In this document: positions 3,211-64,000 of the stretch, in pieces
Layout of the letters: each line of letters starts with the position of its first letter
How positions within the stretch are numbered: position 1 is the first letter of the stretch
Origin: Promethearchaeia archaeon
GTDB taxonomy: Archaea > Asgardarchaeota > Lokiarchaeia > Sigyniarchaeales > SOKP01
Assembly (NCBI GenBank): GCA_029856145.1
Contig: JAHQWK010000001.1
Span: 384,001 to 448,000, forward strand
DNA length: 64,000 nucleotides
Direction of reading: 5' to 3'
The notes under the pieces: model-generated
The model's database searches: none
The model's input: the letters and a program-made list of their open reading frames with translations, nothing else
Told to the model about the DNA's origin: nothing
Made by a program: the position numbers and the translations under genes

Positions 3211-4278
3211 TCACATGTTCATTAGTTCTTCTTCATACTTAATAATCTCATCATTAGAGATATCTCTATCAAATTTAATCTTTTTCTGAATTCCTAAGTA
3301 GGCACAAGCAAGTTTGGCAGCAGCAGCAACTTCTGCCTTTTTAAGAGTGATAGAATATTCATCTTGTTGAATTGGATCTTCTTGATAAAGACTTTCTTGA
3401 AATTTCTTATCCTGAACTCGAAGAACACGGTCAATTTTCATTTTATATAACAACGAAGCCATTTTATTGGCAGCTTTAAAAGGCAATTGATTTTTAACAA
3501 CCAATCGTATAATATTATTTACATCAAAATAATTTAGAGTCTCAAATTTAGCCCGCAGAAAACTTTTAAGATTTTCAGAATTCTTTTCACATTCAATTTC
3601 CATCCAATCATGTATGGCCAGTTTTCTTCTAAAAAATATTAATTCCCAATCAATATTTAGTTCCTTTAATAAATCAAATATCATATCATCATTGGATTTC
3701 CTCGATTCTATTATTATATAAAGCTGAAGTCCATAGTACTTATGTTCTTGTTGAAGAAAAAATCCTCTTTGTTGCATAGAAGCAAGGATTAGAACTTTTA
3801 TGGAATATACATTTTCTGAAAGATTCTTTTTCTCGCAATTTAGATATATAACATTACCCTCCTCACTGATAAATTCGCTATCTAAAAAGCCTAAAATACT
3901 TTCCTTGTTATCCTTGATAAAAGCCATTAATCCACTAAGAGTTGGTTTCACATCAAATTTAATCAAATCATTTTCTTCAATTGTCACATAATCGTGGAAA
4001 TTACTACCAATTGCTAATTTAATGGAATTTAATTTAAGTTCTTTATCACTACCAAACACCTTCTGAAATGCATCATTTATCGGAAAAACCTCTTCTTCCA
4101 AAATTTTTATATCCGCAATAGAACTCTCATAAGGTTCTGGTTCATTTAACATTTTATTCAATACTGGTGCTTCCGAAGCATCAACCTCGATCTCATAAGA
4201 TTTTGCTAAATCTTTTCGAATAATATAGAAAGACCTTTTCTTTTTAGTATAGATAGAAAGTGATAGATAGTCATCCAA
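3211..4278 (-). CDS. Hypothetical protein; frame stays open 24 codons upstream, so the start is uncertain
   Basis: 355-aa ORF with no recognisable motif. Confidence 0.7.
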   Translation of the reverse strand: MDDYLSLSIYTKKKRSFYIIRKDLAKSYEIEVDASEAPVLNKMLNEPEPYESSIADIKILEEEVFPINDAFQKVFGSDKELKLNSIKLAIGSNFHDYVTIEENDLIKFDVKPTLSGLMAFIKDNKESILGFLDSEFISEEGNVIYLNCEKKNLSENVYSIKVLILASMQQRGFFLQQEHKYYGLQLYIIIESRKSNDDMIFDLLKELNIDWELIFFRRKLAIHDWMEIECEKNSENLKSFLRAKFETLNYFDVNNIIRLVVKNQLPFKAANKMASLLYKMKIDRVLRVQDKKFQESLYQEDPIQQDEYSITLKKAEVAAAAKLACAYLGIQKKIKFDRDISNDEIIKYEEELMNM

Positions 4279-4543
4279 TACTGCCCGAAATTTTTCTATA
4301 AATTTACCTTCTGAATTTACTGACCCAATCTTTCTTCTTCGAATTATAAATCAACCAAATATTGTTAAAAATATCTTACTTCTATTAATTAATGTATAAA
4401 ATTTTTATCTTAAATTCTTATCTAAAATGTAATATAAGATTATTAATTAAAAAATAAAACACATTAAAGGGAAAGTAATTTTTTAAAATAAAGTTTGGAG
4501 ATCAATTTTTGCCCATAAAATAAGTCTTCTTTATATTACATTC

Positions 4544-4711
4544 TTATTCTAAGAAATAAATCTCTCCCTTCTTAACATATACGATTGTAGAACCGAAATT
4601 ATTACGTATGGTGTACTTATCTCCTTGGACATCTAATATTTCTATAGAATAAGACATTCTTCTTTGCTTCATTATGTCTTCAATAATTTTTTTTTCTTCT
4701 TGTGCATCCAT
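4544..4711 (-). CDS. Small hypothetical protein, 55 aa (MDAQEEKKIIEDIMKQRRMSYSIEILDVQGDKYTIRNNFGSTIVYVKKGEIYFLE)
   Basis: Manually translated ATG..TAA ORF below the ORF-track cutoff; protein-like composition inside an AT-rich gap. Confidence 0.7.
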   Translation of the reverse strand: MDAQEEKKIIEDIMKQRRMSYSIEILDVQGDKYTIRNNFGSTIVYVKKGEIYFLE

Positions 4712-5282
4712 GATTTTGAGTTATTAATCACTGCAAAAAAATTTTATTATTTTATTATTTGATCAAGAAAAGAAATTAGCGAATTTTAAGTCAAAATCAG
4801 CTTTCTTTTTAATAAAAATTAAAAATAGATAACAGTTTTAATTATAAAATTATATCAGGTATTTATAATAAATTTAGACTAATATTCAATCAATATGTTA
4901 AGAAAATTAAATAAAAGTAAAGCATAGGATCGAAAGTTCATTGATTATGCACATTATAAATACAACTTTAAGCGATAAAAAGATATATTCATCCAAATTT
5001 TCAATTAGGAAAACTTTATGCAATGTTAAAAAATCTATGAGAAAAAACTCTTTCCATCAAAATCCTTGTATTTATCCCCTCTTTAGAAAAATTAGAATTA
5101 ATAAAATTCATTGTAGAATTAATAACCTCAATTTTATAGTTTATTGTCCTTATTAAAAAATCGATTTTTTTTTATTAAATCTTACATATTTTTATATATT
5201 AAAAAACATGTTTATATAAAACATATGTTTCTTAAACTAATAGAATTGTCTTAAAGCTTTATTCTTTTATATCTGATATAAC

Positions 5283-6533
5283 ATGGTTAAACAGAAATTA
5301 GATATTGGATTTTTCACCTCGATGTATTCACAAGTTAATGGTACTGCCATTGCTTGCAGAAATCTTGCTGAAGGTATCGCAAAATATACAGGACATAACG
5401 TTCATGTATTCGCACCGGGTATCCAAAGACCTAAAACCAAATCAAAGAATCTACACCTCTACAACTTTTTTGGTGCGAAAATTGGGTCTAAAACTGGTTT
5501 TGTACTAAGTTTTCCGATACACAAATATTTTTTCTGTTCCCATGATTATCTAGATATGGTACATATTCATACACATGCCAGTTATGGGTCTATGGCAATT
5601 AATTGGGCAAAATATTTGGGTATTCCAATGACTGGAACCCATAATTCTCCGCTTAGTTATTATACCGCACAATATATTCCCATCTTTGGTAAACTTCTTT
5701 CGAGGATGGATTGGGTATGGCGCTATGAAAGACATATCTTAGATAAATATGACCTTGTTTCGGTTCCAACTAAATCTAAAAAAAATTTACTTAGAGATCA
5801 AAGATTTAAAGAACCAATTGTATGTTTAACTAATGGTATTTCAGATTTATATTTTAAAGATGTAAAAGAAAATGGAATACGAGATAAATATAATTTGGAC
5901 AATAAAAAGATTCTTTTATATGCTTCTAGATTGTCTCCTGAGAAGCATCAATTAAGTATTATTAAATCATTTAGAAAAATCCAAAAAGAAGTACCAGATT
6001 CACATTTAGTTCTTGTAGGGAGTGATGGACCTTCTAGTTCTCATGTTAAGAAGTTGATTAAGAAGAAGCATTATAAAGATATTGTTTCTTACTTGGGTCG
6101 AGTACCTTTTACAGATCTATTAAAATTGTATAACACGGCAGATTTAGCTTGCCTTTGGTCATGGATTGAAGCGGAAGGTTTAGTTTTGATTGAAGCAATG
6201 GCACAAGGAACGCCTTGTGTAGGTGCGAATGCTATCGGAATTTCAAATGTAATTAGGCATGGAAAAACAGGATACCTTGCCAATGATCTTGACGATTTTA
6301 AGAATAAAGTGGTAAAAATATTTAAAGATGATGATTTAAGAGCAGAGATGGGCATGAATGCTAAAATGCTAGCTCGAAATTATCGAATATCTAAGGTAGC
6401 TAAAACTTGGATAAAACTCTATAAATTTACAATAAATGAACTTTACCCACTGCGTTATTATAAAAAAGAAAGAAAAGAACGAGTTGAATTGGTTAAGGAA
6501 TTTGTTCACAAATTACCTATTGTTTCATTTTAA
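5283..6533 (+). CDS. GT4-family glycosyltransferase
   Basis: SQVNG, HIHT, SRLSPEK, EAEGLVLIEAMAQGTP motifs. Confidence 0.92.
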   Translation: MVKQKLDIGFFTSMYSQVNGTAIACRNLAEGIAKYTGHNVHVFAPGIQRPKTKSKNLHLYNFFGAKIGSKTGFVLSFPIHKYFFCSHDYLDMVHIHTHASYGSMAINWAKYLGIPMTGTHNSPLSYYTAQYIPIFGKLLSRMDWVWRYERHILDKYDLVSVPTKSKKNLLRDQRFKEPIVCLTNGISDLYFKDVKENGIRDKYNLDNKKILLYASRLSPEKHQLSIIKSFRKIQKEVPDSHLVLVGSDGPSSSHVKKLIKKKHYKDIVSYLGRVPFTDLLKLYNTADLACLWSWIEAEGLVLIEAMAQGTPCVGANAIGISNVIRHGKTGYLANDLDDFKNKVVKIFKDDDLRAEMGMNAKMLARNYRISKVAKTWIKLYKFTINELYPLRYYKKERKERVELVKEFVHKLPIVSF

Positions 6534-6540
6534 ATTCTCT

Positions 6541-7287
6541 TTAGAAATTATGTTGTGTTCTAATTTGTTCTAATTTTGTTTTACAATTATTACAAAAATC
6601 AAATGACTTTTCATCAATTTTTTTTACATCATGAGAGAATCTCATAACACATGAATTTTTGAGACAATGGTCTGGACCTAATATGATATGTCCAATTTCG
6701 TGAATTACTTCTTTAATAACTCGCTGCTCAAAAATTTTAAAATTTGCTAATCTATTATAGAACTGTTCTTTTAACTTTAATGATGATATTACACAACAAC
6801 GATGTTTTAAATGTGTTTCTCCAAATAAAAATAGAATATTATCATCACTACTAGAATATAAAGGAAGATCAGTAACTGCAATTATCATTCCAAGGTTTTC
6901 TTCTATTCTTTTATTTATTAAAATCTGATAAAACTTATTAGTAGGATGTATCTTAATTCTACCCGAAGTTTTTTTTATTTCTCCATATTCGGTTTTAACA
7001 CCTTTAGAGATTAATTCAAAAGAAAAATTGTAAGTCCCTAAATTTCTGATAGTAAAAAAAAAAGAATCAAACACTTGAGTTAAATAATGCTTTATTTTTT
7101 CAAAAAGAGCTTTATCATATTCTCCAAAAAATAGAATTCCTATATGACACGGCAATAAAAGCTTTTTTGGTATTTCATTATCTAATTCAAATTCGTCAGT
7201 ATAAGATATTCCTATTCTTGTAATTAGTTTTTTTAATTTATCTTTATATCTGCGAATTTTTTGCTCATATTTCTGAAATCTTGGCAT
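6541..7287 (-). CDS. Archaemetzincin-like Zn metalloprotease (M54)
   Basis: KEVIHEIGH..LG..HC....CVMRFS and FCNNC motifs. Confidence 0.85.
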   Translation of the reverse strand: MPRFQKYEQKIRRYKDKLKKLITRIGISYTDEFELDNEIPKKLLLPCHIGILFFGEYDKALFEKIKHYLTQVFDSFFFTIRNLGTYNFSFELISKGVKTEYGEIKKTSGRIKIHPTNKFYQILINKRIEENLGMIIAVTDLPLYSSSDDNILFLFGETHLKHRCCVISSLKLKEQFYNRLANFKIFEQRVIKEVIHEIGHIILGPDHCLKNSCVMRFSHDVKKIDEKSFDFCNNCKTKLEQIRTQHNF

Positions 7288-7440
7288 TATCAGAGTTTTA
7301 AAAGTTACGTTCTATAAGAAGTTTCTTTCATTGAATAAAATTGAAATAGTGGGTTTAAATTTATTATTAATAGGTATTTAAGTCATAAATTCTATTATAA
7401 ATTAGATTAATTATTTTTTTACTATCAATTTTATGAAAAC

Positions 7441-8487
7441 ATGACAGATTTAATAGAAAATTCAGAGGAAACAAATCTAAATAAAGAAATTGTCAAAAAT
7501 TCTATAAATTTAGAAGAAAGGGACAAAGATGTAGTTGAAAAAGATTTTATCCCTCACTTTTTTCCAACTTACAGAATCAAAAGAAATTTATATCCAATAC
7601 CAATAATTCTCGTAGTTGCGATCTCAGCAATCCTAGCTTATTTAGCATATGTTGAAGCAGGAATTCAAATTGATGGTGGATACATTTCAGAAAGTGAATT
7701 TGGAGCACTAGGAGGAATTTTAAATGGGTTAATTTATACAGCATTAGCGGGAATCTCTGCTTTTGTCATAATTTTCATAATAAAGAAAAAAGGTATTGGT
7801 GTATTAATGTATATTTTTGGATTTAGTTTTGGATTAGTTGGATTTTTTCAAACTTGGTTTTTTGGGGAAATTATTATATATTTATTATTTTTAAATTCAC
7901 CACATTTATTCTATCTATTTTATTATGAAATGATTTTTCTAACAGCCTTTTTTACCATTCTTATGCTGTATTTATATTTTACTTCAAAATCGATAAAAAT
8001 AAAAAATTTTATCGTCTTATATATAGGATTATTAATTGGAGCATCTATGGGTGTATTAATGCCTCTTTGGACTACTTTAGCTATCTTAATTGGGATTTCA
8101 TGTTGGGACATTTTCGCTGTGTTATATAAACATGGACCAATCAAACAATTGATTGATATTGCGTCAAATCCAGAGGAAGATGTTGTTCTATCAGAACAAG
8201 AATTACAACAAAAAATTAAAACTGGAGAATATGAGTATGATACTTCAAAATTGGAAATTGGAATAGGTGATTTAGCTTTTTATAGCATGCTTACTTCAAG
8301 TGCCCTAGTTCAAACTAATAATCTAATAATTATGATTTTGACTGCATTTGCAACAATTGTAGGTACTGGAATTACTATTGCAGGTTTAAAACGAAACAAA
8401 ATCTTACCTGGTCTACCCATTTCGATTTTTCTTGGTATAGGAACGATGTTACTCTCATGGTTTTTAATCTCAACTTTTTTCTTTTAG
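7441..8487 (+). CDS. Presenilin-family GxGD intramembrane aspartyl protease
   Basis: Multi-TM; WDIFAVL (YD-equivalent), IGIGDLAFYS, LPGLPISI (PAL-equivalent). Confidence 0.9.
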   Translation: MTDLIENSEETNLNKEIVKNSINLEERDKDVVEKDFIPHFFPTYRIKRNLYPIPIILVVAISAILAYLAYVEAGIQIDGGYISESEFGALGGILNGLIYTALAGISAFVIIFIIKKKGIGVLMYIFGFSFGLVGFFQTWFFGEIIIYLLFLNSPHLFYLFYYEMIFLTAFFTILMLYLYFTSKSIKIKNFIVLYIGLLIGASMGVLMPLWTTLAILIGISCWDIFAVLYKHGPIKQLIDIASNPEEDVVLSEQELQQKIKTGEYEYDTSKLEIGIGDLAFYSMLTSSALVQTNNLIIMILTAFATIVGTGITIAGLKRNKILPGLPISIFLGIGTMLLSWFLISTFFF

Positions 8488-8527
8488 TTAAGATTACATT
8501 TTTTTTAAGGAAATAACCTTTAATTTA

Positions 8528-9760
8528 TTGCTTAAATTAAATTTATTATTATCGAAAGTGAGGATTAAAGCGATGGCTAATATATATAATATTAATACAA
8601 TTGCAGTTATTGGTGCTGGAACGATGGGTCATGAAATTGCCCAAGTTGCTTTAATGGGAGGATTAAAACCTGTTTTATTAAATGATTTAAATAGTGAAAT
8701 ACTCGAAAAAGCAATAAACAAAATTCAAAATGGTTTAAGAAGATTAGAAACTAAAGGAAAGTTAAAGAAAGGATATACGACTTCCGCCCTTATGGAAAAT
8801 CTTAAAACAGAAATAGATCTAAAGAAAACGGTTTCTCATGTAGATTTTGTCTTTGAAGCAATTCCTGAAAAAATGAAAATTAAACAAGAACTCTTCGAAA
8901 AATTAGGGAATTTTGCTCCAAAACATACAATTTTGGCTACAAATACATCAACGATGAGTATAACAAAGATTGCTTCTTTATCAGGACGACCAGATAAAGT
9001 TATTGGGTGCCATTTTTTTACTCCGATAGTGGTACTTAGATTAATTGAAATTATAAAAGGTAGAGAAACTTCAGAAGAAACAGTTGAAATTACTAAAAAG
9101 GTTTGCGAACAATTACCTGCTCTCAAAGGAAGAAGGTTTTTACCCGTTCTTCAAAAAGAGAGTCCGGGATTTATTGTAAATCGGTTACTGTTAGGAATTA
9201 GTGCTTATTTAAACTGGCTTCTTGATTATGCGATGGAGGAAGGCATACCATTAGAAAATTTAGATGCTGATGTAAAAGAAATAATGAAAGTCGGGCCATT
9301 AGCCAAATGGGATTATTTGGGCCTTGATGTAGTTTATAATACTTTAAAATATTTTGAGAAAGTTGTTTCACTTGATTTTTCTCCTGGAAAAACTCTAACA
9401 AAATTAGTAAATGAAGGAAAATTAGGTAGAAAAACTGGAGAAGGCCTTTTTAAATGGGTTGAAGGTAAACCACAAATAAATTTAGATAGAAAAGCAAGAA
9501 TTCTCGATCTTGAGCTTTTTATGGCAATTCAGTTGAATGAAGGATGTAAACTCTTAGAAGAGAGGATAGTTTCTGGATATAAAATTATTGACGATACAAT
9601 GTTTGCTGGAATGGATATGCCTGGACCATTTGGTATGGGGAAAAAAAAATATGAACAATGGGTTAAGCTGCTAGAAGATTTCGTTGGAAAATCAAATCTG
9701 AATTATTTTAACCCTTGTAATTTAATGAAATCTGGCAAATTTATTCAAATGCGAAAATAA
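8528..9760 (+). CDS. 3-hydroxyacyl-CoA dehydrogenase (likely start ATG 8573)
   Basis: GAGTMG, EAIPE, TNTST, HFFTP, PGFIVNR, GKLGRKTGEG. Confidence 0.92.
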   Translation: MLKLNLLLSKVRIKAMANIYNINTIAVIGAGTMGHEIAQVALMGGLKPVLLNDLNSEILEKAINKIQNGLRRLETKGKLKKGYTTSALMENLKTEIDLKKTVSHVDFVFEAIPEKMKIKQELFEKLGNFAPKHTILATNTSTMSITKIASLSGRPDKVIGCHFFTPIVVLRLIEIIKGRETSEETVEITKKVCEQLPALKGRRFLPVLQKESPGFIVNRLLLGISAYLNWLLDYAMEEGIPLENLDADVKEIMKVGPLAKWDYLGLDVVYNTLKYFEKVVSLDFSPGKTLTKLVNEGKLGRKTGEGLFKWVEGKPQINLDRKARILDLELFMAIQLNEGCKLLEERIVSGYKIIDDTMFAGMDMPGPFGMGKKKYEQWVKLLEDFVGKSNLNYFNPCNLMKSGKFIQMRK

Positions 9761-60950: not shown

Positions 60951-61167
60951 AATTTTTTGTAAAATTATTATTTTTTAATTTAAATTTTACAAAAGGAACA
61001 AGAAAAACTTGAATATGAAATTATTTCTTTTAAAATTTGGATTAATATCACCCACATATTATCCCTATTCATTGACGGGTTAGAAAATTTCTAAATTTTT
61101 ATATATTTGAAAGTCATATTATTTAGTTAAGCAGAATTAAAGAATCAGAATAGGGTCAATAAATAAA

Positions 61168-63141
61168 GTGGATGCCGACAAAAATAATAATATTTTAGAA
61201 AAGCAACTAAAAACTTTAGGTCAGAAGGTTAGGATTGATATTCTAAAAAAGTTAAAAAACACCCTAACTCCTTTATCATTTTCAAGGCTACAAAAGGAGG
61301 TTTTAATAAATGATCTTTCATCTGTGAATTTGTCTTTTCATTTAAACACATTAAAAAAAAGTGAATTAGTATATTCTTCTGATGAGGGTTATTCAATTAC
61401 ATATTTAGGGGAGCAGATTATAGATAAAATTTTATCTATTGAACAAATTCTAAACAAGCAAAATCAATCAAGAATGATCCGAACTTCAAAATATTCAAAG
61501 GAACTTTTTGACGCTAGTAAAATTGAGGAATACTTAGTTACTGAGGGTGAATTGGAGCGTTTTTTAGCTAGACAAATTGCTCGTGAAGTAGAAGAACGTC
61601 TTTCTAAAACTAATATAGAATATATGACTGCTCCTTTAATGCGAGAATATATTAATGCAATTTTATTAGAAAATGGTTTAGAAGAAGTAAGACATAAATT
61701 AACTCGATTAGGAACTCCTCCTTTTGAAGTATCTAAATTGTTTGAATCCAATAATGATCGGATAAACCCTGAAATATTTATTGAAAAATTAGGTTCTGAC
61801 GTTTCTGAGCAATTTCTACTTCTAAATCTTATACCTAAAAATTTAGCTGATTTATATTTATCTGGGGAAATTGCTCTTTTACATTTAAATTACTGGGCTT
61901 TAAGGCCTTTAAGTCTCTATATAAATACAAAAACAATAATGGATTATCTTTTCAAGAAACACAGCAATCTTAAACATAATATAGAGAAAGATATAAATCA
62001 TTCAGAACTGATTATTCAATTCTTAGATCTTTTATATGTTCTAAGACAATTTTATTCTGAAGATTTACTTTTAGGAAATTTTAACAATCAATTCCTTTCT
62101 TCATTTTCGTTGCCGAAAGCAATTTCCTCTGACTTCCCTTTATTTACTTCTCAAATTCTTAGATATAATAATTTTTTTAACAAGACAAAACCTTCTTTAA
62201 CACTTGAATTTAATTATAATGGGAGATCTTCAAATCAGAGCCTTATCGATGAAGCTTTTCTTAATTCATTAGATACAAGATGTGGAGAGCTTGTTAAACC
62301 TTTATTATTATTTGAATATTCAACGTTTTTTCCGTTAGGGCCAAAAAATAATATTATATATAATCTATTAGTTAATAATTTGAAAAATAATGTTATTCTC
62401 TACAATAAAACTTATTCAAATTTAATTAATTCAACTATAATTCAGATACCAAACCCTCAAAAAAATCAAGTCATATTAGATAAGATTTTAGTTAATTTAC
62501 CTATGATTTCAGTTGAAGCAAAGCAAAATGACGAAAAGTTTTTGGAATTATTATATGACAAATTAAGTTCCGTTTTTGAATTGTTTGATTATAAAGAGAA
62601 ATTAGTGCAGAAGAAATTAGATTCACTTAAGGAATGGAATTCCATTATATCAAATATTTTCAACAATAATAAAAAGACTATATTCAAAAATGCTCTAAAA
62701 TCAATTAGTTTTTTCGGTTTTAATGAAGCTGTTTTAAATCACTGTGGAATTGAACTTGATAGAACAGAAAATAGTGAATCTTTTGCTTTAAAAATACTAT
62801 CTTTAATGAAAAAGACTATAGAAGAAAAAAACAACACAAATGGCAACAACTTTGTTTTAAGCCAACCTCATTATGATTCTTATTTGCAAGACTCTTGGCA
62901 TAACGGTATAACACAATCCAACCAAAAGATAAAGGGTTATTCCTCAAGTTTGATAAGAGATGAGTCAAATCTTTCCCTTAATAAAAAAATCGCATTATTT
63001 AAAAAATTTCAAAAAATTATAGATAAAGGGACTTTATTTACAGTAAAAATAAACAAAGAAGAAATTAAATTACAAAAGTTTCTAAAAACTATAATTGAAT
63101 CCAAAATAGGTGCGATCTCCTTAAGAGATTGCATACCCTAA
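61168..63141 (+). CDS. wHTH + ATP-cone + degenerate class III ribonucleotide reductase (NrdD)-like fusion
   Basis: ArsR-like N-terminus; IRTS....E.FD.SKI...TAPLMRE ATP cone; TRLGTP, SGEI, GFNEAV NrdD remnants; no RxxGY loop. Confidence 0.8.
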   Translation: MDADKNNNILEKQLKTLGQKVRIDILKKLKNTLTPLSFSRLQKEVLINDLSSVNLSFHLNTLKKSELVYSSDEGYSITYLGEQIIDKILSIEQILNKQNQSRMIRTSKYSKELFDASKIEEYLVTEGELERFLARQIAREVEERLSKTNIEYMTAPLMREYINAILLENGLEEVRHKLTRLGTPPFEVSKLFESNNDRINPEIFIEKLGSDVSEQFLLLNLIPKNLADLYLSGEIALLHLNYWALRPLSLYINTKTIMDYLFKKHSNLKHNIEKDINHSELIIQFLDLLYVLRQFYSEDLLLGNFNNQFLSSFSLPKAISSDFPLFTSQILRYNNFFNKTKPSLTLEFNYNGRSSNQSLIDEAFLNSLDTRCGELVKPLLLFEYSTFFPLGPKNNIIYNLLVNNLKNNVILYNKTYSNLINSTIIQIPNPQKNQVILDKILVNLPMISVEAKQNDEKFLELLYDKLSSVFELFDYKEKLVQKKLDSLKEWNSIISNIFNNNKKTIFKNALKSISFFGFNEAVLNHCGIELDRTENSESFALKILSLMKKTIEEKNNTNGNNFVLSQPHYDSYLQDSWHNGITQSNQKIKGYSSSLIRDESNLSLNKKIALFKKFQKIIDKGTLFTVKINKEEIKLQKFLKTIIESKIGAISLRDCIP

Positions 63142-63178: not shown

Positions 63179-64000
63179 TTATTTAGTCATCAATTCAGCT
63201 AAGAGCGCTTTCCTCATTGGGATTCCATAATAAGTTTGCCTAAAGTAAATTGCTTTTTCTGAACTATCAACATCAGGAGAAATTTCTGTAATTCTTGGAA
63301 GCGGATGTAATAATCTAAAGTTATCTTTTGTATCCTTAAGATCCTCTTGTCGAAATACGTAAAATCCTTTAATTCTTTCATATTCTTCCAAATCAACAAA
63401 TCTTTCCTTTTGGATTCGTGTCATATAAAGAACATCTAAAATATTTAGTATTTTCCTATAATCCTTAATTTCTTTATATTTAACCTGTCGTTGTTGTAGA
63501 AAATCTTTGTCCCGATTTCTCATTCTCAATTCCTTAGGACTTATGAAATAAATATTCATATCGAAATTTGATAAAAGAATTGAAAGGGAATGAACTGTCC
63601 TTCCATACTTAAGATCTCCCATCAGACCTATATTCAATCCATCTAATGAACCAATTTCCTCAGTAATTGTTAACAGATCTAATAAAGCTTGAGTTGGATG
63701 TTCTCCGCTTCCAGAACCAGCATTAATTATCGGAACCTTAGAAAATTTTGATGCCATTCGAGCAGCTCCTTCAAGTGAATGCCTCATAACTATGCAATCA
63801 CTATAGTTTTCAACAGTTCTTATTGTGTCTGCAATGCTTTCTCCTTTTTTTATAGAAGAAACATCTCCAGAATGAAATCCAATTACATTCCCTCCTAATC
63901 TATACATAGCAGATTCAAAACTAAGACGAGTACGAGTAGATGGTTCAAAAAATAATGTAGCTAAGATTTTTCCTTGAAGAAGATTTGAATTCTTGATTTC
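63179..64000 (-). CDS. pyrB: Aspartate carbamoyltransferase catalytic subunit, 5'-truncated by window edge
   Basis: FFEPSTRTRLSFE (upstream of the called ATG), HPTQALLD, GDLKYGRTVHSL, HPLPR. Confidence 0.97.
   Translation of the reverse strand, partial: EIKNSNLLQGKILATLFFEPSTRTRLSFESAMYRLGGNVIGFHSGDVSSIKKGESIADTIRTVENYSDCIVMRHSLEGAARMASKFSKVPIINAGSGSGEHPTQALLDLLTITEEIGSLDGLNIGLMGDLKYGRTVHSLSILLSNFDMNIYFISPKELRMRNRDKDFLQQRQVKYKEIKDYRKILNILDVLYMTRIQKERFVDLEEYERIKGFYVFRQEDLKDTKDNFRLLHPLPRITEISPDVDSSEKAIYFRQTYYGIPMRKALLAELMTK

What the first reader, a model, noticed from the sequence alone, without database searches (positions are those of the whole stretch)
61168..63141. Class III ribonucleotide reductase apparently repurposed as a DNA-binding (d)NTP sensor
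Seen: residues ~10-90 form an ArsR-like winged HTH, residues ~100-175 a well-conserved ATP cone, and the rest keeps eroded NrdD-barrel landmarks (RHKLTRLGTP, LADLYLSGEIALLHL, SISFFGFNEAV, GYSSS, KFQKIIDKG). The C-terminal Zn-binding CxxC pairs and RxxGY glycyl-radical loop are absent, only three scattered Cys remain, and no nrdG activase is nearby. Known: bacterial NrdR couples an ATP cone to DNA binding to sense ATP/dATP. Inference: this is an independently evolved NrdR analogue, a pseudoenzyme transcription factor that might also use NrdD specificity sites to read dNTP pools. It lies convergent with pyrB.
Basis: partly seen in the sequence, partly recalled or inferred. Interest (0 to 1): 0.85.

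Follow-up and report, generated by a model that had tools for sequence, protein, structure and literature searches.

The report
Dead anaerobic RNR fused to DNA-binding domain
This Asgard-archaeal gene encodes a copy of the anaerobic ribonucleotide reductase that has lost every catalytic element, carries a DNA-binding winged helix and an ATP-cone, and sits beside the pyrimidine gene pyrB, so it is most likely a nucleotide-sensing regulator and not the enzyme that databases name it.

Summary
Window 61168-63141(+) is an intact 657-aa ORF with a wHTH (Pfam DUF7347), an ATP-cone and a class III RNR barrel (Z 30.4 to P. copri NrdD).

- **Catalytically dead:** it ends just before the Zn ribbon and glycyl-radical domain. 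The thiyl-Cys finger loop is gone, the second active-site Cys is Ser249, and the HxHD and NxN substrate motifs are lost.
- **Not decaying:** 30 orthologs have intact frames. dN/dS is about 0.2 overall and about 0.1 in the cone and linker.
- **A real RNR exists elsewhere:** the genome has a canonical NrdD and an NrdG2 activase on other contigs.

New here:
- wHTH-bearing relatives occur in several Asgard families and, by source names, in Bathyarchaeia and Conexivisphaerales. Erosion is graded across them.
- The gene lies next to pyrB in 19 of 21 loci from 6 of 7 families, once directly behind it.
- Five genomes with no detectable RNR or activase keep it.
- A 19-bp site with two conserved arms lies upstream of its own promoter.
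- The barrel is predicted to homodimerise.

Best reading: a dimeric ATP/dATP-sensing DNA-binding regulator of nucleotide metabolism. Its targets are unknown and no regulon was found. The idea that it reads dNTPs through NrdD specificity sites is not supported. The scan has noted this architecture in other genomes. I found no paper on it.

The parts
61045..61063 (.). Conserved 19-bp site ATATCAC-N4-ATAWTATC: two conserved arms around a variable centre, 35 nt upstream of the TATA box. Candidate operator.
   Evidence: Upstream alignments of 16 same-genus and 12 other-genus orthologs. Arms are kept down to 46% protein identity while the centre varies. Only one other exact copy in the 3.55-Mb genome.
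61091..61105 (+). BRE/TATA-like promoter element CTAAATTTTTATATA of the gene.
   Evidence: Nearly invariant in the upstream alignments. Promoter role is inferred from archaeal consensus.
61116..61144 (+). Conserved block ATATTATTTAGTTAAGCAGAATTAAAGAA at the predicted transcription start / 5' leader.
   Evidence: Conserved across the genus. Unique in the genome. No Rfam match.
61168..63141 (+). 657-aa ORF (GTG start): wHTH, ATP-cone and dead NrdD barrel.
61207..61431 (+). ArsR-like winged helix-turn-helix (DUF7347), aa 14-88. Recognition helix reads NLSFHLNTL.
   Evidence: Pfam 45.5 bits, NCBIfam HTH_metalloreg E 1.7e-6. N54, F57, H58, L59 and L62 are invariant.
61474..61707 (+). ATP-cone, aa 103-180, the most constrained part. 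R105, K108, R175 and R180 are invariant in A1; K177 is not invariant there (R in P0128).
   Evidence: dN/dS about 0.1.
61759..63138 (+). Class III RNR alpha/beta barrel without catalytic elements, aa 198-657. Predicted homodimer interface at aa 198-213, 241-246, 277-295, 320-332 and 483-490.
   Evidence: fold; lost residues; dimer.
63179..64000 (-). pyrB (aspartate carbamoyltransferase catalytic chain), convergent and cut by the window end. The conserved neighbour of the gene.

Best explanation
The protein is a catalytically dead paralog of the anaerobic ribonucleotide reductase NrdD that works as a dimeric, nucleotide-responsive DNA-binding regulator.

Shown:
- An RNR barrel fold.
- Loss of both active-site cysteines, the HxHD and NxN substrate motifs, the Zn ribbon and the glycyl-radical domain.
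- Purifying selection over the whole length.
- Conserved adjacency to pyrB.

Inferred:
- The barrel survives as the dimer scaffold.
- The ATP-cone binds ATP or dATP.
- In active class III RNRs these ligands reposition the cone domains. Here the same movement would reposition the two wHTH domains, which are tied to the cone by a long helix (aa 79-100), and so switch DNA binding.
- The 19-bp two-arm site upstream of its own promoter is the first candidate operator (autoregulation).
- Further targets are probably in nucleotide metabolism. pyrB is the best lead.
For: - **Architecture and fold:**
- **Catalytic losses,** mapped through the genome's own NrdD onto T. maritima C125 and C329/C330: S249 replaces the bottom Cys, the finger-loop segment has no Cys, and the protein ends before CxxC..CxxC and RVTGYY. 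HxHD (HVHM in the genome's own NrdD) reads ALLH, and no NxN flap is kept. PMC11226230 names these as NrdD hallmarks.
- **Selection:** 30 intact orthologs. dN/dS is 0.20-0.25 overall, 0.04-0.29 in cone and linker, and 0.10-0.24 in the wHTH for five of six pairs (0.62 in the sixth, whose dS is only 0.035).
- **Dimer:** residues 198-657 in two copies score ipSAE 0.76 against a best control of 0.00. The three runs agree in at least 90% of contacts and partner pLDDT is at least 82. In calibration 20 of 30 solved homodimers and 1 of 23 single chains reached the mark. NrdD dimers are solved, so this may reflect likeness. The interface falls on residues 201-213 and 241-246, which include most of the invariant positions there (P201, L208-S213, N241).
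- **Cone movement in active enzymes:** PMC12662201 abstract.
- **Candidate operator:**
- **pyrB link:** adjacent in 19 of 21 loci, covering 6 of 7 GTDB families sampled. The outer neighbours change while this pair stays. The pair is co-directional in G213, G237, G089 and G007. In G007 the start codon lies within about 3 nt of the pyrB stop.
- **Independence from RNR:** present in G213, G089, G094, G019 and G159, which show no canonical NrdD, no class I/II RNR and no NrdG2.
Against: - No DNA binding or nucleotide binding has been measured.
- The cone scores below Pfam's cut-off in this protein, and its KR dipeptide reads RT. The genome's own, presumably active, NrdD also reads RT.
- The 19-bp site was found at no other nucleotide-metabolism gene. 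It is missing upstream of orthologs in two f1 genera and in the longer forms. No regulon is defined, and the site could belong to another factor.
- The gene is convergent with pyrB in most genomes. That arrangement gives neither a shared promoter nor co-transcription.
- Much of the adjacency within family f1 is inherited synteny.
Confidence: 0.6

Rival explanations
1. A protein-level regulator. The dead subunit pairs with the active NrdD, or with aspartate carbamoyltransferase, and tunes it. The wHTH would serve protein contacts rather than DNA binding.
For: - Pseudoenzymes often regulate their active paralogs (general knowledge).
- The dimer-interface residues are the best conserved part of the barrel.
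- A second dead NrdD without a wHTH exists in the same genome and is conserved.
- The gene is adjacent to pyrB, and to canonical nrdD in G007.
Against: - Five genomes keep it without any NrdD or NrdG. An obligate NrdD partner is therefore unlikely.
- The wHTH has the ArsR-type recognition-helix motif and is under strong constraint.
- PyrI, the usual ATCase regulatory chain, is present.
Confidence: 0.13
2. A DNA-associated factor outside classical gene regulation, for example a replication or chromatin protein that couples ATP/dATP level to DNA transactions.
For: - In family f1 the gene sits in an information-processing neighbourhood: rpoA'', L30e, NusA, S12 and S7 upstream; L44e, TFS, PCNA and primase large subunit downstream.
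- Sequence conservation is high for a regulator, 54-80% among the listed Asgard homologs.
- No regulon was found.
Against: - That neighbourhood is not kept in the other families, whereas pyrB is.
- A single specific conserved site upstream of its own promoter fits a sequence-specific factor.
Confidence: 0.12
3. It is a working ribonucleotide reductase, as NCBI's name says, using unconventional chemistry. It would then be the only RNR in the genomes that lack others.
For: - Five genomes, one of them closed, show no other RNR.
- The barrel is under purifying selection.
- One invariant His-Cys pair (H525, C526) occurs in the close family.
Against: - Every element that all known RNRs need is absent: the thiyl Cys on the finger loop, the radical source and the substrate triphosphate motif.
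- C526 is not kept in the longer relatives.
- No activase is present in those five genomes.
- This genome has a complete NrdD/NrdG pair.
Confidence: 0.02
4. It is a decaying pseudogene or an annotation artefact.
For: Eroded catalytic motifs and a truncated C-terminus.
Against: - 30 of 30 orthologs are intact. The 'internal TAA' flags lie upstream of a later start codon.
- dN/dS is about 0.2.
- 486 homologs reach E <= 0.001 among the candidates scored, and the 120 listed are mostly about 650-665 aa.
- It has its own conserved promoter.
Confidence: 0.01

Closest known systems
Class III (anaerobic) ribonucleotide reductase catalytic subunit NrdD (for example P. copri 8P27, T. maritima 4U3E, phage T4 1H7B)
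   Same: N-terminal ATP-cone followed by the ten-stranded alpha/beta barrel. Z 30.4 over 438 residues. Predicted to dimerise as NrdD does. Clearly descended from an archaeal NrdD, because the cone and linker align with the genome's own enzyme.
   Different: It has an added N-terminal wHTH. It has no thiyl-radical Cys, no second active-site Cys, no HxHD or NxN motif, no Zn ribbon and no glycyl-radical domain. It occurs without an activase. It cannot be an RNR by any known mechanism.
NrdR, the bacterial ATP-cone repressor of RNR operons
   Same: A DNA-binding domain joined to an ATP-cone. ATP/dATP-dependent control of DNA binding is the most economical analogy.
   Different: NrdR uses a Zn ribbon rather than a wHTH. 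It has no RNR barrel and binds paired NrdR boxes at RNR promoters. Here no shared box was found at nrdD or nrdG, and the protein persists in genomes without an RNR. It is an analogue at most, not a homologue beyond the cone.
ArsR/SmtB-type winged-helix regulators, Pfam DUF7347
   Same: The N-terminal 90 residues match DUF7347 above its cut-off and show the ArsR-type recognition helix (S-x-H-L-x-x-L).
   Different: ArsR proteins are about 100-aa metal sensors that dimerise through their own helices. Here the wHTH is a module on a 657-aa protein whose sensing and dimerisation parts come from an RNR.
Enzyme-derived transcription factors (trigger enzymes and pseudoenzyme sensors such as BirA, PutA, NadR)
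   Same: An enzyme scaffold fused to a DNA-binding domain so that metabolite state controls transcription.
   Different: Those mostly keep catalysis. I found no described example derived from a ribonucleotide reductase.

Membership tests
Active class III RNR (NrdD) | Ten-stranded alpha/beta barrel fold of RNR and glycyl-radical enzymes | tested here: met
   Foldseek E 3e-16. VIA Z 30.4, rmsd 3.4 A, 438 aa against 8p27_A.
Active class III RNR (NrdD) | Thiyl-radical Cys at the tip of the finger loop (Tm C330, Pc C416) | tested here: not met
   The genome's own NrdD has SQCCRK aligned to Tm C329/C330. The corresponding segment of P0001 has no Cys and is shortened. Cys occur only at 372, 526 and 655.
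Active class III RNR (NrdD) | Second active-site Cys on strand A (Tm C125) | tested here: not met
   LRPFC in the genome's own NrdD reads LRPLS in P0001. S249 is at least 90% conserved.
Active class III RNR (NrdD) | HxHD triphosphate motif and NxN flap over the substrate (PMC11226230) | tested here: not met
   HxHD position reads A236-L-L-H239. The flap region reads SNND and varies across the family.
Active class III RNR (NrdD) | C-terminal Zn ribbon (CxxC..CxxC) and glycyl-radical motif RVxGY | tested here: not met
   The protein ends at profile position 499 of 562 and at Pc residue about 675. The stop is 38 nt from pyrB.
Active class III RNR (NrdD) | Dependence on an NrdG radical-SAM activase | tested here: not met
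   NrdG2 is in G000 but on another contig. Five genomes with the wHTH form have no NrdG2 at E <= 1e-20.
NrdR-type regulator | ATP-cone domain | tested here: inconclusive
   PF03477 scores 18.1 bits here against a cut-off of 25.8. Relatives score 27.9-36.9 bits over the same segment. The segment aligns with the cone of the genome's own NrdD. There is no PDB sequence hit for the cone alone.
NrdR-type regulator | N-terminal Zn-ribbon DNA-binding domain | tested here: not met
   The N-terminus is a wHTH (DUF7347) and has no Cys.
NrdR-type regulator | Repeated operator boxes upstream of RNR genes | tested here: inconclusive
   A genome-wide scan with the conserved 19-bp site found nothing at nrdD, nrdG or pyrB. 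Other motifs were not searched systematically.
NrdR-type regulator | ATP/dATP-dependent oligomerisation and DNA binding | not testable with these tools
   Needs purified protein.
ArsR-like wHTH / DUF7347 | Match to the family profile over its cut-off, and the recognition-helix motif | tested here: met
   PF24038 scores 45.5 bits against a cut-off of 27.6. HTH_20 E 8e-4. NF033788 E 1.7e-6. NLSFHLNTL has invariant N54, F57, H58, L59 and L62.

The most novel reading that the evidence does not exclude
An RNR-derived transcription factor family that is widespread in archaea (Asgard, Bathyarchaeia, Nitrososphaerota). It would use the ATP-cone to couple adenine-nucleotide or dATP status to expression of pyrimidine and deoxynucleotide metabolism, with pyrB as a core target. 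It would be retained even in lineages that have lost every ribonucleotide reductase. That would make it the missing archaeal counterpart of NrdR and PyrR, and the first ribonucleotide reductase known to have been converted into a DNA-binding sensor.
Probability: 0.25. Interest if true: 0.8.

Novelty: new variant of a known kind. Interest (0 to 1): 0.66.

Why it matters
- **Archaeal regulation:** archaea lack NrdR, and little is known about how they control nucleotide-synthesis genes. A conserved regulator built from a dead RNR would give a concrete candidate to test.
- **Enzyme-to-regulator conversion:** the relatives form a graded series. Some keep the Zn ribbon and a remnant Gly loop, one keeps HxH and a finger-loop Cys, and the form studied here has lost everything.
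- **Annotation:** NCBI names most members 'anaerobic ribonucleoside-triphosphate reductase'. Metabolic reconstructions of Asgard genomes could therefore credit an RNR to organisms in which I detected none.

Tried and rejected
- **Regulon search.** The 19-bp site and the downstream conserved block were scanned over the whole genome. The only other exact copy, the best one-mismatch copy and one two-mismatch copy that were followed up lie by an SDR, an alpha/beta hydrolase and a RagA-like GTPase gene. None lies at nrdD, nrdG or pyrB. No regulon can be claimed.
- **pyrB promoter.** Its footprint is conserved in the genus but shares no evident motif with the gene's own site.
- **Site outside most of f1.** The 19-bp site is absent upstream of orthologs in f1 genera g2 and g3 and in the longer forms.
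- **PDB by sequence.** The whole protein, the cone alone and the family profile gave only marginal NrdD hits (E 0.02) or noise. Cone ligand residues could not be mapped onto a solved cone.
- **'Internal TAA' in three orthologs.** It lies before a later start codon and is not a break.
- **Rfam on the locus.** Nothing was found.
- **Literature.** Searches for DUF7347, NrdD pseudoenzyme, and Asgard RNR with HTH, plus the RNR phylogeny paper 10.1101/2022.04.23.489257, gave no description of this family.
Full report
**Observation**

Window 61168-63141(+) holds an uninterrupted 657-codon frame with a GTG start. Thirty orthologs begin at the same M/V-D-x-D-K-N motif, most of them with GTG or TTG.

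Pfam gives three domains:
- DUF7347, an ArsR-like wHTH, at aa 14-88 with 45.5 bits.
- A sub-threshold ATP-cone at aa 103-174, with 18.1 bits against a cut-off of 25.8.
- NRDD at aa 441-647, matching profile positions 283-499 of 562.

NCBIfam agrees. In relatives the cone segment passes Pfam's cut-off at 27.9-36.9 bits. It aligns column for column with the cone of the genome's own NrdD.

An AF2 model built on 36 homologs has mean pLDDT 76.5. It matches class III RNRs with Foldseek E 3e-16. VIA gives Z 30.4, rmsd 3.4 A over 438 residues, model 198-654 on P. copri NrdD 120-675. The model therefore stops exactly where the Zn ribbon and glycyl-radical domain would begin. The stop codon is 38 nt from the convergent pyrB, so no continuation is possible.

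**Is it an enzyme?**

The genome is 3.55 Mb and 97% complete. It has a canonical NrdD on contig C15: 711 aa, NRDD 1-560, with CPHC..CPQC..RVTGYY. It has an NrdG2 activase on C26 and no class I/II RNR.

That NrdD aligns to T. maritima NrdD so that its C180 equals Tm C125 and its C387/C388 equal Tm C329/C330. Against it, P0001 shows these losses:
- Ser249 at the first position.
- No Cys, and a shortened segment, at the finger loop.
- A-L-L-H where NrdDs have the HxHD triphosphate motif.
- No conserved NxN flap.
- No Zn ribbon.
- No glycyl loop.

PMC11226230 describes the HxHD motif, the NxN flap, the Cys loop and the Gly-Tyr of the radical domain as the conserved functional core of NrdD. The stretch that would form the specificity-site hairpin (about aa 250-290) is the least conserved part of the family alignment. 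By every sequence test available here, the protein cannot reduce ribonucleotides.

**Is it decaying?**

No.
- The search for homologous proteins returned 486 relatives at E <= 0.001. The 120 listed are 54-80% identical and mostly 650-665 aa long. Sources name them either 'anaerobic ribonucleoside-triphosphate reductase' or 'HxlR/ArsR regulator'.
- All 30 orthologous loci fetched have intact frames.
- Nei-Gojobori dN/dS on six independent close pairs is 0.20-0.25 overall. By region it is 0.04-0.29 for cone and linker, 0.10-0.24 for the wHTH (with one outlier at very low dS), 0.26-0.39 for the middle, and 0.18-0.53 for the C-terminal part.
- The barrel is therefore still under selection, though less than the N-terminal modules.

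**Range and graded erosion**

In 301 genomes of the same GTDB phylum:
- The 660-aa form is in 64 of 68 genomes of the window's own family (f1).
- About 710-780-aa wHTH-bearing forms occur in families f2, f3, f11, f15, f17, f21 and f23.
- None was found in f7, f14, f16, f24 or f29, although f14 and f29 mostly have canonical NrdD.

Named members of the longer forms come from Jordarchaeia/Freyarchaeota, Atabeyarchaeum and Odinarchaeia.
- They keep a CxxC..CxxC ribbon, and their Gly loop reads RNIGPY, RLNGPM or TRLTG[PA]Y.
- They also lack the finger-loop Cys and the strand-A Cys.

Outside Asgard, source names place relatives in two further groups.
- Bathyarchaeia (P0305, 732 aa) still has HxH, a Cys in the finger-loop region and the ribbon, but no Gly loop.
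- Conexivisphaerales, in Nitrososphaerota (P0306, 668 aa).

The wHTH fusion is therefore old, and the catalytic parts were lost stepwise. The window's form is the most eroded.

**Genomic context**

ORFs from 21 loci, 11 from f1 and 10 from six other families, were clustered.
- The protein lies next to pyrB (OTCace_N plus OTCace, about 306 aa) in 19 of 21 loci, covering 6 of 7 families.
- The outer neighbours change. In f1 they are rpoA'', L30e, NusA, S12 and S7 on one side and L44e, TFS, PCNA and primase on the other. Elsewhere they are an HTH_3 protein on one side and pyrI, atpF and atpA on the other.
- The pair is convergent in most loci. It is co-directional in G213, G237, G089 and G007.
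- In G007 the start codon lies within about 3 nt of the pyrB stop, and a canonical nrdD faces the gene from the other side.

This is the strongest functional lead. It is tempered by the convergent orientation and by inherited synteny within f1.

**Independence from RNR**

G213 (a closed 4.4-Mb genome), G089 and G094 (f2), and G019 and G159 (f1, 98-99% complete) carry the wHTH form. They show no canonical NRDD match, no PF02867 match and no NrdG2 at E <= 1e-20. The protein is therefore neither an obligate partner of NrdD nor only a regulator of nrd genes. These genomes may lack de novo dNTP synthesis altogether. That point needs its own check.

**Promoter and candidate operator**

Upstream alignments show three conserved elements:
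- A BRE/TATA element at 61091-61105.
- A conserved block at the predicted transcription start, 61116-61144.
- A 19-bp element 35 nt upstream of the TATA box, at 61045-61063: ATATCAC-N4-ATAWTATC.

The two arms of the 19-bp element are kept across genera whose proteins are only 46-54% identical, while the four central bases vary. That is the pattern of a two-half-site protein-binding site. It has one other exact copy in the genome and none at nrdD, nrdG or pyrB. It is absent in genera g2 and g3 and in the longer forms. I treat it as a candidate autoregulatory operator only.

**Dimer**

Two copies of residues 198-657 score ipSAE 0.76 against a best control of 0.00.
- The three runs agree in at least 90% of contacts, and partner pLDDT is at least 82.
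- In the tool's calibration the mark was reached by 20 of 30 proteins solved as homodimers and by 1 of 23 solved as single chains.
- My own alignment was used, so those counts hold only roughly.
- NrdD dimers are solved, so the pass may reflect likeness rather than independent evidence.

The interface uses residues 198-213 and 241-246. These include most of the invariant positions of that stretch (P201, L208-S213, N241), though W243 and P247 are not among the confident contacts. A dimer with two wHTH domains fits a two-arm site.

**Mechanism proposed**

- **Shown:** a dead RNR barrel, a constrained wHTH and cone, and the pyrB neighbourhood.
- **Predicted only:** the barrel homodimer.
- **Inferred:** the cone binds ATP or dATP. 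R105, K108, R175 and R180 are invariant in the 36-sequence alignment, and K177 is basic in most but not invariant there. P. copri NrdD uses Lys7, Arg8, Arg87 and Arg91.
- **Inferred:** in S. thermophilus NrdD, ATP and dATP put the cone domains in markedly different positions (PMC12662201 abstract). Here the same movement would carry the wHTH domains, which are joined to the cone by the long helix 79-100, and change their spacing on DNA.
- **Targets:** unknown. The gene's own promoter and pyrimidine synthesis are the leads.

**Comparison and novelty**

It works like NrdR in logic (cone plus DNA-binding domain) but is not an NrdR. It has no Zn ribbon and I found no NrdR-like boxes. It is a member of the NrdD superfamily by descent and fold, but it fails every test for the active enzyme.

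I found no paper on it. The scan has noted the same architecture in several other genomes, and one follow-up (e1-2484408) reached the same 'dead RNR fused to a DNA-binding domain' reading.

- The pyrB linkage.
- Persistence in genomes without a detectable RNR.
- The graded relatives inside and outside Asgard.
- The candidate operator.
- The selection profile by region.
- The predicted dimer.

Noticed in passing
G000:C13:89917-91719 (L002:1180-2982): A second dead NrdD paralog without a wHTH. It is 600 aa, with an ATP-cone plus NRDD 8-501/562, Ser for the strand-A Cys, no finger-loop Cys and no radical domain. It is 51% identical to the genome's canonical NrdD over aa 3-354. Intact orthologs (44-74% identity) occur in most genera of the family. 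The next gene is a RagA/Gtr1-like GTPase.
   Followed up: partly
Genomes G213 (closed, 4.4 Mb), G089, G094, G019, G159: No canonical NrdD, no class I/II RNR (PF02867) and no NrdG2 were detected, although completeness is 87-99%. These Asgard genomes may have no ribonucleotide reductase at all and may depend on salvage. NCBI-style naming of the wHTH form as an RNR would hide this.
   Followed up: partly
L060 (G007:C56:68000-84000), about 4179-9700: A canonical nrdD is convergent with the wHTH form. The wHTH form itself starts within about 3 nt of the pyrB stop, an operon-like pyrB-regulator pair.
   Followed up: partly
window 61168; orthologous loci L016-L045: The start codon is GTG or TTG in 24 of 30 orthologs. 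This suggests conserved weak translation initiation, as is common for low-abundance regulators.
   Followed up: no
window 60955-60994: A perfect 12-nt inverted repeat (TTTTGTAAAATT / AATTTTACAAAA) lies just after the S7 stop, followed by T-rich sequence. It is probably the terminator of the rpoA''-L30e-NusA-S12-S7 cluster.
   Followed up: no
L001:2718-3554 and 3630-4010 (G000:C15): Downstream of the canonical nrdD lie a 278-aa protein with two retroviral-type aspartyl-protease domains and a MazG-like nucleotide pyrophosphohydrolase.
   Followed up: no
G000:C20:98517-98792 (L068); loci L057, L060, L061, L065: pyrI is unlinked from pyrB in this genome. In the other Asgard families pyrI is transcribed divergently from pyrB and is followed by A-type ATP synthase genes, an unusual split of the pyrBI pair.
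   Followed up: no
window 63960-64000 and beyond (L016, pyrB upstream): The pyrB-L44e divergent intergenic region is almost invariant within the genus. It contains a near-palindrome, TTTACATAATGTTAA, between the putative TATA box and the pyrB start.
   Followed up: partly
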